41,631 bases of DNA from positions 1 through 41,631 of IMG/VR virus record IMGVR_UViG_3300032270_000152. The stretch is one strand, 5' to 3'. This document shows, piece after piece, positions 27,046 to 34,080 of this stretch. This stretch comes from a virus (taxonomy: Duplodnaviria > Caudoviricetes). Positions within the stretch are counted from its first letter, which is position 1. Every line of letters starts with the position of its first letter. Position numbers and translations under genes: made by a program. The notes beneath the pieces are model-generated. The model was not told the origin of the DNA, did not search any database, and was given only the letters and a program-made list of their open reading frames with translations.

Positions 27046-28104
27046 TTACCGGACTTGAACAGGCATCACCAGGTACAGGCTATCGGCGTCAGTGGCGGAA
27101 GTGAACACCACAGGCGTCGTTGCCGTATTGGTCTTGATGCTCAGGGTATCACCACTGATGCCCTTGATGCCGTCGATCAGGTAGTGAACGTTTGCCGCCA
27201 TAGTCGGCAGCTTGCCGTCACAGGCGATCAGCTCGCTGCCGCTGTTGGCCTCAGCCTCGGCTGCAACCTTGAGCGCCATGCCATCAACCTGCAGCTTCAC
27301 GACGCTGTTGTGGCTGTCGGCGATGACGGCGACACGCTCCAAAGCGTGCAGCAATGACAGCCGGTTGACGGTCAGCACCTGCGCGAAGGATGCAGGGACA
27401 AGCGCCTGCACGTTCGGGTATGTGCCCTCCAGCGTCCCGGAGATGATCGTGGTGCCGTCTGCGAGCACGATGGCCGCCTGGCGATTGTCCACGGTCAGCA
27501 CGGCAGACTGCTTGACCTGCTGCAGTGTCCGGGCTGGCACCACCACGTCGAGATCTGCGATGTCGGCGGTGATGGATCGAGAGGCAAGCCGATGGCCGTC
27601 GGTGGCCTCGATGCGAAGCGTGCCGCCAGCGCTGCGCAAGTGGATGCCGGTCAGCAGCTGTTTGCTTGCGTCGGTCGCAACAGCAGGCATCACGGCAGCC
27701 AAAGCGCCGGAGAGGTCCACAGGAGCCCCTGCAGCGGCATCCACGGCAGGCAATGCGGGAAAGTCATCCGCAGAGGCCACTGAGAGGCTGTAAGAGCCGC
27801 TGGAAGCGGTCAACGTGACCCGTGCGCCATCAACGGCCAGCGAGAGCGCCTGAGAGCCGTCCAGACGGCCTGCGATGTCCGCCAGCAGCCGATGCGGCAC
27901 GACGGTGGCTCCAGGCACCTCCACGGCGGCGGTGATGGTGGTACTGATGCCGAGGTCCAGGTCGTAGGCGGTGACGCGCAGGTGGCCATCAGCGGCCTGC
28001 AGCAGCACGCCCGACAGGATCTGATGCGTGCGGCCACTGCCGACAGCACGCGAGACAAGTCGGAGCGCGTGTGAAAGTTCAGATTGTGCGACGAGGATTT
28101 TCAT
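27046..28104 (-). CDS. dnaN: DNA polymerase III beta sliding clamp
   Basis: ILSGVLL, AYDLDLGI, DDFPALP, ATDGHRL, GTYPN, YLVMPVQ; 352 aa. Confidence 0.95.
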   Translation of the reverse strand: MKILVAQSELSHALRLVSRAVGSGRTHQILSGVLLQAADGHLRVTAYDLDLGISTTITAAVEVPGATVVPHRLLADIAGRLDGSQALSLAVDGARVTLTASSGSYSLSVASADDFPALPAVDAAAGAPVDLSGALAAVMPAVATDASKQLLTGIHLRSAGGTLRIEATDGHRLASRSITADIADLDVVVPARTLQQVKQSAVLTVDNRQAAIVLADGTTIISGTLEGTYPNVQALVPASFAQVLTVNRLSLLHALERVAVIADSHNSVVKLQVDGMALKVAAEAEANSGSELIACDGKLPTMAANVHYLIDGIKGISGDTLSIKTNTATTPVVFTSATDADSLYLVMPVQVR

Positions 28105-31056: not shown

Positions 31057-31239
31057 ATGCCGCCAACCAAACCAATTTTTCGCATCACCTACCTCCGGCC
31101 CTGGGGGCCATGCGTGGTCAATACCGCGCAGTTCCAAACAGAAACCGAGCTTCGGATTGGTTTTGCCAAATCCTATCCAGGCTGCGAGTTGGTTTCCGTT
31201 GAAGACGTGACCACCTACTTTTTCCCTGCAACCAAATAA
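31057..31239 (+). CDS. hypothetical protein
   Basis: MPPTKPIFRITYLRPWG...; first gene after the promoter; its stop overlaps the next gene's start. Confidence 0.65.
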   Translation: MPPTKPIFRITYLRPWGPCVVNTAQFQTETELRIGFAKSYPGCELVSVEDVTTYFFPATK

Positions 31240-32552
31240 GGATTTTTACAGAGGCAGATGTTTACACTGCATCACAGCAACGCTTAGACTTTATCTTTGC
31301 AAACTTTGCAAGGATTTACGTTTCTTTCTCTGGAGGCAAGGACTCTGGCGTACTGTTGAATCTTGTTATTGATTATGTGCGCAAACATGGAATTAAAACT
31401 AAGATTGGCGTGCAAATCATGGACAATGAAGCGAATTATACGCACAGCGAGCAGTTCATGCACGAAATCATTCAAGACAATTTAGACGTTCTTGATGTTT
31501 ACTGGTGCTGCCTTCCAATTACGCTTCCATGCACCGTTTCTTCTTATGAGATTGATTGGCAATGCTGGGGCGAAAACGATCGCCACAGATGGATTCGCCC
31601 CATGCCGGAGCAAGAGTATATTGTTAATTTGCAAAACCATCCTTTTGGCGATTTGTTTGTCGAAAATATGGACTACGCTACTTTTTGGGATATGTTTGCC
31701 GAGTGGTACAGCCAAGGCGAACCATGCGCTAACCTGATTGGCATCCGCACCGTTGAATCACTCAATCGGTTTCGGGCAATCATGAATCAAGATAAAGAAA
31801 CAATGCATGGAATGATGTGGACAAAGAAAAATACTGATCACACCTTTAATTGCTATCCAATTTACGACTGGCGTACAGAAGACATCTGGACTGCCAACGC
31901 CAAGTTCGGATGGAATTACAACAAACTTTACGACGTATTTTATATGGCTGGCATTCCAATCAAAAAAATGCGGGTTGCCTCGCCGTTCATGTCAGAGTCT
32001 AAATCTAGCCTTGCCATGTATCGGGTGATTGACCCGCAGATTTGGGCCAGGCTTTGCGCACGAGTTGGTGGCGCCAACTTTATGGCCACCTACGGAAAAC
32101 AACTTGACTACAAATCCTTCAGGCTGCCAGCCGGCCACACCTGGAAATCGTTCGTCAAGTTCCTGCTTGCCACTTTGCCAGATCAATCCAGCGCAAATTT
32201 TAAGCAGCGCTTCATTCAGTCAATCCGTTACTGGGGCAGAGTGGGGCGCGGTCTTCCTGATGTCATCATTGAAGCTCTTGGCCGCATTGGCATCCGTTTT
32301 TACATCAACGGCACCACGCGCCATGGCGGCAACAACCTACGCCGTGTTGTCATCAAGGTACCGCCCGACCACCTTGATAACCTGCCATGCCATAACAGCA
32401 TGGTCACGTCATGGAAGCGATTCGCTATCACTGTTCTCAAGAACGACCACACTTGCAAATACCTTGGCCTTGCTCCGACGCAAGAGCAGCAGCGCCGACA
32501 AAAGTCAATTCAACGCAAGTACAGCCAAGTCCTCAACCGCTCAATCAAATGA
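31236..32552 (+). CDS. IbrA/YbdN-like PAPS-reductase-family PP-loop protein with DUF3440; apparent ATA start
   Basis: YVSFSGGKDSG, LIGIRTVESLNR, YPIYDWRTEDIW, YNKLYD, MRVASPF, RVGGANF, SWKRFAITVLKND; the frame is open from 31203 but has no ATG/GTG/TTG before 31356. Confidence 0.9.
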   Translation: MRIFTEADVYTASQQRLDFIFANFARIYVSFSGGKDSGVLLNLVIDYVRKHGIKTKIGVQIMDNEANYTHSEQFMHEIIQDNLDVLDVYWCCLPITLPCTVSSYEIDWQCWGENDRHRWIRPMPEQEYIVNLQNHPFGDLFVENMDYATFWDMFAEWYSQGEPCANLIGIRTVESLNRFRAIMNQDKETMHGMMWTKKNTDHTFNCYPIYDWRTEDIWTANAKFGWNYNKLYDVFYMAGIPIKKMRVASPFMSESKSSLAMYRVIDPQIWARLCARVGGANFMATYGKQLDYKSFRLPAGHTWKSFVKFLLATLPDQSSANFKQRFIQSIRYWGRVGRGLPDVIIEALGRIGIRFYINGTTRHGGNNLRRVVIKVPPDHLDNLPCHNSMVTSWKRFAITVLKNDHTCKYLGLAPTQEQQRRQKSIQRKYSQVLNRSIK

Positions 32553-33484
32553 AAATTTTGAACGCCGCTCAACTTTCTGACGATCGCGTTGTGCAATGCC
32601 CTCGCGGTGGTTTCACCAGTCATCGTCTCGTCGTTGAAACGGATGGCATGGGCTACAGCATGACCAAAACTGTTATCCACCCTGGCAAGCCTCACCGCTG
32701 GCATTATCAGCACCATCTCGAAACTTGCTATTGCATCAGCGGCAAAGGTTTGCTGATCAACGAAGCAACGCAAGAAATGATTACGGTTGGCCCTGACGTG
32801 ACCTACGTGCTTGACAAGCACGATGCTCACACATTTGAAGCGTTAGAGCCAACCACGCTGATCTGCGTTTTCAATCCACCCCTCAAGGGCGACGAGCTTC
32901 ACGATGCAAACGACTCTTATCCTTGGCGATCTCCCGTCTATTCTGTTCGCAGCATTCCTATTGAAAAAGTTACCGCCAACGATTACAACCCCAACTCTGT
33001 GGCGCCACCTGAAATGGCACTACTTGAAACATCAATTTGGGAGGATGGTTACACGCAGCCCGTCGTGGTAGTACACGATGCCGAACAAGACCTTTATGTA
33101 GTTGTTGATGGCTTTCACCGTTATTTGACACTAAAAAACAGCCAGCGCATCCGCGAGCGCGAAGGCGGTCGGCTTCCTGTGGTCGTATTGCGTAAAGAAT
33201 TGCACGACAGGATGGCTTCAACCATCCGACACAACCGTGCACGTGGCTCGCATAACATTGAGCTTATGAGCGTGATTGTGTCAGAGCTTATTGAAATGGG
33301 CAAGGGCGACGCGTGGATCTGCAAGCACATTGGCATGAGCCCAGATGAGCTGTTGCGCCTTAAACAGGTCACGGGCTTGGCTTCTTTGTTTTTTGGCAAA
33401 GAATTTAGCAAATCATGGGAGGTCGATCAAATGGATGAAGCGGAGTTAGCTGATGAAGCTGAAGAGAGTTTGGTTGCCAATTGA
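32549..33484 (+). CDS. ectoine synthase (EctC)-like cupin fused to IbrB/ParB-sulfiredoxin-like domain
   Basis: aa 1-125: HYQHHLETCYCISGKG, YVLDKHDAH, CVFNPPLKGDELHD; aa ~128-311: ANDYNPNSVAPPEM.LL..SI.EDGYTQP, VVDGFHR, RMASTIRHNRARG; ATGA overlap. Confidence 0.9.
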   Translation: MKILNAAQLSDDRVVQCPRGGFTSHRLVVETDGMGYSMTKTVIHPGKPHRWHYQHHLETCYCISGKGLLINEATQEMITVGPDVTYVLDKHDAHTFEALEPTTLICVFNPPLKGDELHDANDSYPWRSPVYSVRSIPIEKVTANDYNPNSVAPPEMALLETSIWEDGYTQPVVVVHDAEQDLYVVVDGFHRYLTLKNSQRIREREGGRLPVVVLRKELHDRMASTIRHNRARGSHNIELMSVIVSELIEMGKGDAWICKHIGMSPDELLRLKQVTGLASLFFGKEFSKSWEVDQMDEAELADEAEESLVAN

Positions 33485-33878
33485 CCAATGGGAAGAGGTG
33501 CCAGCCAATATGTGGGGAGAGGTCGCTAACAGACGCCTTTACCTACAAAGAGCTGTTATCTTTACCGGCAATCATCGCCTTTACGGGCGATACATGAGGC
33601 GAGTCATCCACGAATGGCCTAACAGCTGCGTTAACGCCTTGACTGATTACAACTTGAATCGAAAAGCATGGATAGGGCACGCCGCCTGCGCGTTGGCCCT
33701 TAGATGCCCTGAAGACATCACTCGACAAGCATGGGGATTATTGACCGATGAACAACGGACACTGGCGAACCGACAAGCGGATCGAACCATTTGCGCCTGG
33801 GAGGTGTGCTACCGAGCGAGTCTTGGAATACGTCAAGACTTGGCAGCGCCGCTGCTATTCGGGGGGGATACCAGATGA
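33453..33878 (+). CDS. Trp-rich hypothetical protein of the IbrAB-like cassette
   Basis: WEE...MW, WPNSCVNALT, NRKAWIGHAAC, CPEDITRQAW; GGAG upstream; overlaps both neighbours. Confidence 0.8.
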   Translation: MKLKRVWLPIDQWEEVPANMWGEVANRRLYLQRAVIFTGNHRLYGRYMRRVIHEWPNSCVNALTDYNLNRKAWIGHAACALALRCPEDITRQAWGLLTDEQRTLANRQADRTICAWEVCYRASLGIRQDLAAPLLFGGDTR

Positions 33879-34080
33879 GGTGCCAGCAAAGATAGCTGCA
33901 TCTGGACGCGCTCCGTCTTGGCGTGCCGTGGCCATTGCCATACTTCAAAACGACTTGCATTTGTACCAACTTGGATATGCAAGACCTGCATATGATCAAC
34001 AGCGGCGAACCGTTCGCATGGCGCAGATTGCAATCCATGGTTGCGTACCTGAAGGAACTCAATTGGAGCTGTTTTTATGA
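33748..34080 (+). CDS. stand-alone DUF3440-like domain protein
   Basis: YVKTWQRRCYSGGIPDE...PSWRAVAIAILQNDLHLYQLG matches the C-terminus of 31236..32552; ATGA overlap with the helicase; start uncertain. Confidence 0.75.
   Translation: MNNGHWRTDKRIEPFAPGRCATERVLEYVKTWQRRCYSGGIPDEVPAKIAASGRAPSWRAVAIAILQNDLHLYQLGYARPAYDQQRRTVRMAQIAIHGCVPEGTQLELFL

What the first reader, a model, noticed from the sequence alone, without database searches (positions are those of the whole stretch)
31236..34080. Four-gene cassette (PP-loop/DUF3440 + EctC-ParB fusion + unknown + stand-alone DUF3440): candidate new modification system
Seen: four overlapping genes, visibly AT-richer than the flanks, lie between the first rightward ORF and the helicase, so they would be among the earliest transcribed. 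Established: IbrA/IbrB (YbdN/YbdM-like) pairs combine a PAPS-reductase-family PP-loop enzyme with a ParB/sulfiredoxin-fold protein, and their biochemistry is unresolved as far as I know. Relatives include DndC (DNA phosphorothioation) and the ParB/Srx-fold serine kinases SerK and SbnI. EctC cupins catalyse metal-dependent cyclo-condensation. Inference: adenylation, phosphotransfer and cyclisation activities together suggest a pathway that installs an unusual DNA or nucleotide modification (anti-restriction) or makes a small molecule. I know of no description of this version with EctC, but could not search to confirm novelty.
Basis: partly seen in the sequence, partly recalled or inferred. Interest (0 to 1): 0.9.

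Follow-up and report, generated by a model that had tools for sequence, protein, structure and literature searches.

The report
Phage IbrAB cassette with ectoine enzymes
A phage related to cyanobacterial viruses carries a widely conserved four-gene set (an ATP-using enzyme, a ParB-type partner fused to an ectoine-synthase-like enzyme, and two small proteins, one ending in a sliding-clamp-type docking peptide) that likely works as one machine on replicating DNA and probably attaches an ectoine-like chemical group to it to evade host nucleases, although this copy has lost the normal start codon of its first gene.

Summary
The four overlapping genes are real and travel together: 80 of 80 viral loci carry EctC::IbrB, gene 3 and gene 4, 79 carry IbrA, and cultured phages Gaia, Nebkiss and XCL1123 have the set. 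This scan reported the cassette before on other DNA. New here: (1) six distinct relatives insert an ectoine-hydroxylase (EctD)-like gene, two with an O-methyltransferase, and other IbrAB loci carry a GNAT in the same place, which points to a tailored ectoine-like product; (2) natural fusions link the parts and a model docks the IbrB tail on IbrA (0.68, best control 0.01); (3) gene 4 ends in a clamp-binding motif (48 of 96 tails, 7 of 873 controls); (4) close kin most often hold an SNF2-DNA methyltransferase in the same slot. Best reading: a clamp-tethered DNA-modification machine of unknown chemistry (0.45). A free small molecule or a regulatory role remains open. Phosphorothioation and SerK-type kinase activity are poorly supported. 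Gene 4 is only the tail of DUF3440. Gene 1 starts with ATA here and ATG in a near-identical virus, so this copy is probably turned down. No biochemistry exists; all mechanism is inferred.

The parts
31236..32552 (+). Gene 1, IbrA/YbdN-type PP-loop enzyme (PAPS_reduct + DUF3440), 438 codons counted from the ATA
   Evidence: Pfam/PHROG; model closest to FAD synthase (Z 15.0, rmsd 3.4, 170 aligned), APR-B (13.7) and CysD (13.6); dN/dS 0.03 against 60 kin
31236..31238 (+). ATA in place of the ATG start; the same base makes the upstream ORF's stop TAA instead of TGA
   Evidence: ATG at the same codon in 48 of 79 kin, nearly all others have ATG/GTG a few codons up; A at 31238 in run X1 (depth 17, may be the source), G in X2 (2 differences in 341 nt, depth 2.9) and X4 (a relative, depth 9.4)
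31323..31346 (+). PP-loop of gene 1; lost if translation began at TTG 31356
   Evidence: sequence; conserved across 16 diverse IbrA-like proteins
32549..32926 (+). Gene 2 N-terminal EctC-type cupin: metal triad and most ligand residues kept, Trp21 and Asn38 replaced
   Evidence: dN/dS 0.039
32927..33484 (+). Gene 2 C-terminal IbrB/YbdM-type ParB domain with a helix-turn-helix-like segment
   Evidence: dN/dS 0.016
33374..33430 (+). IbrB tail (residues 276-294) predicted to dock on IbrA residues 1-11 and 210-241
   Evidence: score 0.68, best of 3 controls 0.01
33453..33878 (+). Gene 3, all-helical protein of no known family or fold; fused to IbrB, to gene 4 or to a GNAT in relatives
   Evidence: (pLDDT 92)
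33748..34080 (+). Gene 4, free-standing copy of the IbrA C-terminal module; starts 131 nt inside gene 3
   Evidence: start codon kept in 80 of 80 sequences (79 ATG, 1 GTG) while the gene 3 residue varies; background T/C 166/199
34060..34077 (+). C-terminal clamp-binding-type hexapeptide of gene 4
   Evidence: fits the consensus in PMC11139829; 48 of 96 distinct gene 4 tails against 7 of 873 control tails
27046..28104 (-). Phage-encoded DNA polymerase III beta clamp, the likely docking partner (not part of the cassette)
   Evidence: three DNA_pol3_beta domains over cut-off
31057..31239 (+). Small upstream ORF (longest form from 30967) whose stop overlaps the gene 1 start; backbone gene of one phage group, not a fixed part of the cassette

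Best explanation
The four genes are a conserved phage cassette whose products likely assemble into one machine that is probably tethered to the replication sliding clamp and would attach an amino-acid-derived, ectoine-like cyclic amidine group to newly made phage DNA as a likely shield against host nucleases. Shown: gene structure, domain content, co-occurrence, purifying selection, the fusions and the motif. Inferred step by step: (1) IbrB binds IbrA by its C-terminal tail (model) and, with its ParB/helix-turn-helix part, engages DNA; (2) genes 3 and 4 form an adaptor (fusions IbrB::g3, g3::g4, g4::IbrA) whose tail docks on the beta clamp, in place of the SNF2 translocase that accompanies many other IbrAB pairs; (3) IbrA uses ATP to adenylate a phosphate or carbonyl and couples an amine-bearing group, as its FAD-synthase/CysD-like fold would allow; (4) the EctC-type cupin closes an amine onto an acyl group to give an ectoine-like ring, before or after attachment; some relatives then hydroxylate (EctD-like) and O-methylate it, and EctC-less relatives acetylate instead (GNAT). 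In this genome gene 1 has a recent ATG-to-ATA change, so this copy is probably expressed weakly or not at all. Rough odds: acts at replicating DNA 0.65; covalent DNA modification 0.45; the attached group is ectoine-like 0.3.
For: Co-occurrence: EctC::IbrB, g3, g4 in 80 of 80 viral loci, g1 in 79 (one cut by a contig end); Gaia, Nebkiss, XCL1123. Selection: dN/dS 0.016-0.039. One machine: 65 of 65 longer g3 homologues are IbrB::g3 fusions; g3::g4 fusions in 7 of 150 representatives and L255; g4::IbrA in L330; IbrA-IbrB model 0.68 vs best control 0.01, a mark reached by 116 of 157 solved and 2 of 215 mismatched pairs, runs agree in at least 56% of contacts, partner pLDDT at least 61. DNA link: clamp motif in 48 of 96 (strict) or 72 of 96 (loose) g4 tails vs 7 and 38 of 873 controls; clamp gene in the window; the IbrB region also matches the ParB part of a phage DNA-methyltransferase family, PHROG 498, E 8e-10; among 168 IbrAB loci with enough flank, 60 have SNF2, 91 have g3, none both. 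Slot: upstream of the helicase, 27 of 62 bounded kin loci hold an SNF2 + N6/N4 DNA methyltransferase, 3 the cassette, none both; in phage D4276 an SNF2-IbrA-IbrB set lies two genes behind acrIIA5. Tailoring: six distinct EctD-like genes (30-50% alike) inside cassettes, all 4 viral relatives found by the EctD scan among them, needing at least 4 changes on the IbrA tree; O-methyltransferase in L251 and L333; GNAT between IbrA and IbrB in L298, L311, L329 and beside IbrA in Hendrix. Not a plain osmolyte gene: no ectB in 24 viral records; Trp21 and Asn38 absent in 147 of 147 domains.
Against: No modified nucleoside, enzyme assay or protection phenotype is known for any IbrAB system in the papers I could search. 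The EctC and EctD pockets are enclosed small-molecule sites and the EctD-like proteins keep the family's ligand motifs, which fits a free compound at least as well as a DNA-bound one. The slot also holds HNH nucleases, a RecD-like helicase, unknown genes or nothing (32 of 62), so sharing it is weak evidence. Genome-wide exclusion of methyltransferases is not clean: N6/N4 type in 0 of 25 cassette records vs 2 of 10 others, but C5 type in 4 of 25 vs 0 of 14. The SNF2/g3 split follows IbrA clades, and two g3 loci have another helicase next door. Clamp binding is inferred from a short motif. E. coli keeps ybdNM on the chromosome under a LysR repressor (PMC9068703), a setting that does not call for DNA modification.
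Confidence: 0.45

Rival explanations
1. The cassette makes a free small molecule, an ectoine-like cyclic amidine (hydroxylated or methylated in some phages), that acts as stress protectant, DNA stabiliser or signal; IbrA supplies the acylated precursor in place of EctA/EctB.
For: EctC passes the family cut-off and keeps the metal triad and Ser23, Arg25, Thr40, Tyr52 in 147 of 147 domains. EctD-like genes with intact motifs recur in the cassette. EctC is known to cyclise other substrates such as glutamine (PMC6344544). IbrA's closest folds adenylate small molecules.
Against: It leaves the ParB fusion, the clamp motif, the SNF2 partners of other IbrAB pairs and the methyltransferase slot unexplained. 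Trp21, whose loss leaves 9.7% activity in the model enzyme, is never present.
Confidence: 0.2
2. The complex is a regulator or counter-defence device that acts on a protein or nucleotide, not on DNA chemistry: IbrB binds DNA as a co-activator and IbrA adenylates a host or phage factor at the fork or promoter.
For: Annotations call IbrA/IbrB co-activators of prophage gene expression (the original E. coli work is recalled, not read). IbrB has a helix-turn-helix-like segment. IbrAB lies near acrIIA5 in D4276. Chromosomal copies exist in E. coli (PMC9068703) and many gut Alphaproteobacteria.
Against: A pure regulator does not need interchangeable cyclase, hydroxylase, O-methyltransferase and acetyltransferase genes.
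Confidence: 0.22
3. IbrA is a DndC/SspD-like enzyme that installs phosphorothioate or a like backbone change, with IbrB as a DndB analogue.
For: Weak DndC matches (PADLOC E 2e-6; TIGR03183 E 3e-4); same PP-loop superfamily (PMC10853773); a Cys-Cys pair is invariant in 62 of 62 close homologues.
Against: 20 bits against a cut-off of 290; no cysteine is invariant across 16 diverse IbrA-like proteins; genes 2-4 match no PADLOC model; EctC, EctD and GNAT have no role in sulfur transfer.
Confidence: 0.07

Closest known systems
IbrA/IbrB of E. coli and phages; YbdN/YbdM of E. coli K-12 (PHROGs 2302 and 2159)
   Same: PAPS_reduct + DUF3440 enzyme next to a ParB_N protein with the same motifs; 30-41% identical to phage IbrA proteins.
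   Different: A distinct IbrA clade with an EctC cupin, genes 3 and 4 and a clamp motif, and without the SNF2 partner. No chemistry is described for any member in the papers seen.
Mycobacterium phage Gaia gp103-107, Nebkiss, Pseudoalteromonas phage XCL1123
   Same: Same cassette: IbrA 66-69% identical, EctC domain 42-48%, gene 3 57-59%. GenBank already names the fusion.
   Different: Gaia has a GIY-YIG gene inserted; XCL1123 has EctC and IbrB as two genes. Annotation only; no function found in print.
Ectoine synthase EctC and hydroxylase EctD of ectABC(D) clusters (5ONM/5ONN/5ONO, 5BXX; 3EMR, 4MHR)
   Same: Cupin fold, Glu57/Tyr84/His92 and most ligand residues; relatives add an EctD-like gene (E 4e-60 to 3EMR).
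   Different: Trp21 and Asn38 replaced, no ectB in the phage records searched, fused to IbrB, joined by an O-methyltransferase in two loci.
DndC/SspD/BrxP phosphorothioation enzymes with ParB-family DndB
   Same: PP-loop enzyme paired with a ParB-superfamily protein in a conflict setting (PMC10853773, PMC12839542).
   Different: Far below the DndC cut-off; no family-wide cysteines; no DndA/D/E-like partner among the cassette genes.
Phage DNA hypermodification loci (core transferase plus exchangeable tailoring enzymes) and phage SNF2/ParB-methyltransferase pairs
   Same: Fixed core with variable GNAT, hydroxylase, methyltransferase or glycosyltransferase genes; shares its slot with an SNF2-methyltransferase. 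The general pattern of such loci is recalled.
   Different: No described pathway that I found uses an IbrA-type enzyme, an EctC cupin or a clamp-docking adaptor.

Membership tests
IbrA/IbrB (YbdN/YbdM) | PAPS_reduct plus DUF3440 in one protein | tested here: met
   both over Pfam cut-off; PHROG 2302 E 1e-110
IbrA/IbrB (YbdN/YbdM) | adjacent IbrB-type ParB protein | tested here: met
   PHROG 2159 E 2e-76; motifs shared with annotated IbrB
IbrA/IbrB (YbdN/YbdM) | activation of prophage (eib) gene expression | not testable with these tools
   function recalled from E. coli work and seen in annotations only
Ectoine synthase EctC | profile score over the curated cut-off | tested here: met
   PF06339 124.3 vs 27; NF009806 132.1 vs 128
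Ectoine synthase EctC | metal ligands Glu57, Tyr84, His92 | tested here: met
   147 of 147 distinct cassette domains
Ectoine synthase EctC | all six substrate residues, including Trp21 and Asn38 | tested here: not met
   Trp21 in 0 of 147 (Phe 124, gap 19, Gly 4), Asn38 in 0 of 147 (Thr 135); Arg25, Thr40, Tyr52, Glu57 kept
Ectoine synthase EctC | ectB in the same cluster or genome | tested here: not met
   no match in 24 viral records, 16 of them at least 90% complete; ectA and host genomes were not searched
Ectoine synthase EctC | converts N-acetyl-diaminobutyrate to ectoine | not testable with these tools
   needs an assay
DndC / phosphorothioation system | score over the DndC cut-off | tested here: not met
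   20 vs 290.4 bits
DndC / phosphorothioation system | conserved cysteine dyad and Fe-S ligands | tested here: inconclusive
   Cys-Cys invariant in 62 close homologues, no cysteine invariant in 16 diverse ones; no DndC structure among the fold hits to compare with
DndC / phosphorothioation system | DndA/D/E or Ssp partner genes | tested here: not met
   genes 2-4 and the upstream ORF hit no PADLOC model; the rest of the window was not scanned with PADLOC
SerK/SbnI ParB-fold kinases | score over family cut-off | tested here: not met
   14 vs 380 and 13.9 vs 350 bits; Noc and ParB models score better
SerK/SbnI ParB-fold kinases | amino-acid kinase activity | not testable with these tools
   needs an assay
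DUF3440 (gene 4) | Pfam gathering score over the whole domain | tested here: not met
   13.8 vs 25 bits, profile positions 137-179 only; homology to that tail is supported
Beta-clamp-binding proteins (gene 4) | terminal penta- or hexameric clamp motif | tested here: met
   fits the consensus of PMC11139829; 48 of 96 tails vs 7 of 873
Beta-clamp-binding proteins (gene 4) | physical binding to the clamp | not tested
   the one complex job went to IbrA-IbrB

The most novel reading that the evidence does not exclude
IbrA/IbrB is the core of an undescribed, widespread family of DNA hypermodification machines, and this branch rides the sliding clamp to decorate phage DNA with an ectoine-like bicyclic or amidine group, reusing the osmolyte enzymes EctC and EctD as DNA-tailoring enzymes.
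Probability: 0.3. Interest if true: 0.92.

Novelty: new variant of a known kind. Interest (0 to 1): 0.7.

Why it matters
IbrA/IbrB pairs occur in 223 of 50,697 phage records (distant kin included), in E. coli and in many gut bacteria, and I found no biochemistry for them. This branch gives chemical handles: an EctC cupin, and in relatives EctD, O-methyltransferase or GNAT, which predict an amine-bearing, ring-closed product with set mass steps. Three cultured phages on laboratory hosts carry it, so one nucleoside LC-MS run can decide the main claim. If true it adds a new DNA modification chemistry and a new way (clamp docking) to aim it. Either way, viral 'ectoine synthase', 'ectoine hydroxylase' and 'PAPS reductase' calls in these phages should not be counted as salt-stress or sulfur-metabolism helper genes without testing.

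Tried and rejected
Fold of gene 3: no match at E <= 0.001 in PDB, best Z 4.2 among 48,161 chains, only its own XCL1123-like homologue in the viral library, Atlas hits under 0.9; this does not show a new fold. Genome-wide exclusion of DNA methyltransferases: mixed result, dropped as support. Decay of the window's copy: departures at conserved columns (2, 1, 1, 1 in genes 1-4) are in the range of kin, so no decay beyond the start codon. Sequencing error at the start codon: the run that may be the source has A at depth 17, so a real allele is more likely. Expression: no RNA holder listed. Promoters, terminators and Rfam RNAs: nothing above chance. One-clade test for EctD loci and the careful IbrA tree did not finish; only the quick tree is cited. 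Literature: searches gave no functional study; one search was swamped by unrelated matches and only 30 of 111 papers were listed. Restriction-site avoidance was considered and not run, because these phages swap the slot often.
Full report
Setting. The window is a complete 41.6-kb tailed-phage record (CheckV 100%) whose terminase is 77-78% identical to Synechococcus phages S-H1 and KBS-S-2A and whose sigma factor is closest to cyanophage ones, so a picocyanobacterial host is likely. It encodes a primase-polymerase, a beta clamp, a helicase, RecE/RecT-like proteins, ThyX and dCTP deaminase. The cassette lies just right of the point where the primase (leftward) and helicase (rightward) arms diverge.

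Observation. Four overlapping genes fill 31236-34080. Gene 1 is an IbrA/YbdN-type protein, gene 2 an EctC cupin fused to an IbrB/YbdM-type ParB domain, gene 3 has no family, and gene 4 resembles only the last part of DUF3440. GC is 0.490, below all 662 other same-length windows. The 131-nt overlap of genes 3 and 4 is real: the start codon of gene 4 is kept in 80 of 80 sequences that could be aligned there (one, L080, has a short gene 4), although the gene 3 residue at that place varies among D, N, H, Y and S and the synonymous C-ending codon is as common as the T-ending one elsewhere (166 T, 199 C).

Start codon. Gene 1 begins with ATA. Kin have ATG at the same codon in 48 of 79 loci and nearly all others ATG or GTG a few codons up; 67 of 67 scored metagenome loci have ATG or GTG in range. 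The run that may be the source carries A at depth 17; a contig from a second sample with only 2 differences in 341 nt carries G (depth 2.9, so thin), as does a relative in another study. The next ordinary start would cut off the PP-loop and the residues predicted to bind IbrB. The genes show no other decay. This is most simply a recent allele that lowers or removes IbrA; that ATA is a weak start is recalled knowledge.

Distribution. A scan of viral contigs found 215 relatives of gene 2; all of the best 80 carry EctC::IbrB, gene 3 and gene 4, and 79 carry gene 1. These sets are redundant and chosen by likeness. The set also occurs in Gaia, Nebkiss and XCL1123, in bacterial assemblies of several phyla and in metagenomes, fused or split and in more than one gene order. 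Of 217 non-redundant IbrA+IbrB loci, 131 have EctC, and their IbrA proteins form one clade. Selection is strongly purifying on IbrA, EctC and IbrB (dN/dS 0.030, 0.039, 0.016; dS is near saturation, so these are rough).

One machine. All 65 longer homologues of gene 3 are IbrB::gene 3 fusions; 7 of 150 listed representatives and locus L255 are gene 3::gene 4 fusions, and L330 has gene 4 in frame with IbrA. With the EctC::IbrB fusion in the window, this links all five domains. A model of IbrA with the IbrB domain scored 0.68 against a best control of 0.01; that mark was reached by 116 of 157 solved and 2 of 215 mismatched pairs, the runs agree in at least 56% of contacts and the partner's pLDDT is at least 61. 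It places the conserved IbrB tail on IbrA. It supports binding and does not show it; my sequence and fold searches found no close solved IbrA or IbrB.

Link to DNA. Gene 4 ends in a peptide that fits the clamp-binding consensus (PMC11139829, passages): 48 of 96 distinct tails by a strict pattern and 72 by a loose one, against 7 and 38 of 873 unrelated long ORFs; the 96 include a few IbrA fragments and many close kin. The fused SNF2-methyltransferases of kin carry a like motif internally, and 30 of 61 IbrB::gene 3 tails end in a related Q-x-x-aliphatic-Y pattern. Among 168 IbrAB loci with over 1.5 kb upstream, 60 have an SNF2 gene, 91 have gene 3, 17 neither and none both; this follows clades, so it counts as a hint that the clamp adaptor replaces a translocase. 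In 80 kin found by the helicase, the upstream slot holds an SNF2 plus N6/N4 methyltransferase in 27 of the 62 bounded loci, the cassette in 3, and other genes or nothing in 32. The five helicase kin at 91-93% identity all hold the methyltransferase, and one has a clamp 95.5% identical to the window's, so the cassette replaced it or was replaced recently. Genome-wide, methyltransferases are not cleanly excluded.

Chemistry. The IbrA model (pLDDT 75) is closest to FAD synthase, APR-B, CysD and APS/PAPS reductases (Z 12-15), then TilS and thiolases: an adenylating fold. It is far below the DndC cut-off and has no family-wide cysteine. The cupin keeps the metal triad and Ser23, Arg25, Thr40 and Tyr52 in 147 of 147 domains but never Trp21 or Asn38 (roles from PMC6344544, passages), and no ectB was found in 24 viral records: likely an active cyclase with a shifted substrate. 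Relatives add tailoring genes inside the cassette. Six distinct EctD-like proteins, 30-50% alike, sit in L251 (same protein in L410), L253, L333, L334, L335 and L409; in L335 the contig ends before EctC could be seen. They keep the family's signature (TIGR02408 E 9e-51 but under its cut-off; E 4e-60 to 3EMR), all 4 viral loci found by the EctD scan are cassette loci, and they need at least 4 changes on a quick IbrA tree. L251 and L333 add an O-methyltransferase (E 3e-27 to 3SSM). EctC-less loci L298, L311 and L329 have a GNAT-like gene between IbrA and IbrB, a related GNAT is fused to gene 3 in P0417, and distant kin in Hendrix, Laroye and PBC5 lie beside acetyl-, methyl- or glycosyltransferase genes. 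The common thread is a product with a free amine that is acetylated in one branch and ring-closed, hydroxylated and methylated in another.

Mechanism. I commit to a clamp-tethered machine that modifies nascent phage DNA with an ectoine-like group (0.45). The weak point is that EctC and EctD have small enclosed pockets, so tailoring may happen on a free precursor, or the product may never reach DNA (rival, 0.20). A regulatory or counter-defence role on a protein or nucleotide (0.22) fits the old 'co-activator' label and the place near acrIIA5 in D4276. Phosphorothioation is unlikely (0.07).

Known and new. Gene 1 and the ParB domain are members of the IbrA/IbrB family. The cupin works like EctC but fails two defining residues and the ectB context. 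GenBank already labels the Gaia fusion, and this scan had described the cassette in other genomes. I found no functional study in nine searches of the open library; subscription journals are not covered and no supplements were read. Papers seen as passages only: PMC6344544, PMC11139829, PMC10853773, PMC12839542, PMC9068703, PMC4541368, PMC8813620, PMC5874904; all others as search listings. The original IbrAB work, the general layout of hypermodification loci and EctD residue roles are recalled. A words search of earlier scan notes for EctD with this cassette returned nothing. Verdict: new variant of a known but unsolved kind; interest 0.7.

Noticed in passing
window:31238: One base turns the gene 1 start from ATG to ATA while leaving the upstream stop intact (TGA to TAA); a near-identical virus in another sample has ATG. 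A possible natural off or low allele.
   Followed up: partly
L333:4998-6808; L251:2580-5014; L334, L335, L253, L409: EctD-like hydroxylase, and in two loci an O-methyltransferase, inside the cassette; would be mis-counted as osmolyte helper genes.
   Followed up: partly
L086:4746-7004; L087:37-2360: SNF2-like helicase plus N6/N4 DNA methyltransferase, fused (752 aa) or split, is the commonest occupant of the slot before the helicase (33 of 80 loci); fused forms carry an internal clamp-type motif.
   Followed up: partly
L119:358-1410; L098:5847-6875; L156:1037-2032: A 330-350 aa protein of no Pfam family fills the same slot in 10 loci and starts with a clamp-like peptide.
   Followed up: no
L298:5600-6010; L311:5595-5990; L329:5595-6014; P0417: GNAT-like gene between IbrA and IbrB in SNF2-type loci, and fused to gene 3 in one protein.
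   Followed up: partly
L435:1978-5759 (phage D4276): SNF2-IbrA-IbrB lies two genes behind acrIIA5 in the post-lysin region.
   Followed up: no
L081:9197-9571; L078:2532-2852: GIY-YIG endonuclease genes inserted at two different places in the cassette.
   Followed up: no
L171:1-2717; L172:226-6106; L173:4316-7869; L168:2604-6152: A distant IbrA-like branch without the DUF3440 tail sits with several ParB genes and methyl-, acetyl- or glycosyltransferases in Mycobacterium, Arthrobacter, Bacillus and Microbacterium phages.
   Followed up: no
L257-L328: IbrAB with an SNF2-like gene in many gut Alphaproteobacteria assemblies; earlier scan notes cover this.
   Followed up: no
window:35426-35977: AT-rich HNH endonuclease between helicase and VRR-NUC, not found in the 80 cassette loci; probably a recent insertion.
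   Followed up: no
L063:539-4256: A 4.3-kb contig repeats the upstream ORF and the start of gene 1 after the cassette: a tandem copy, small circle or assembly artefact.
   Followed up: no
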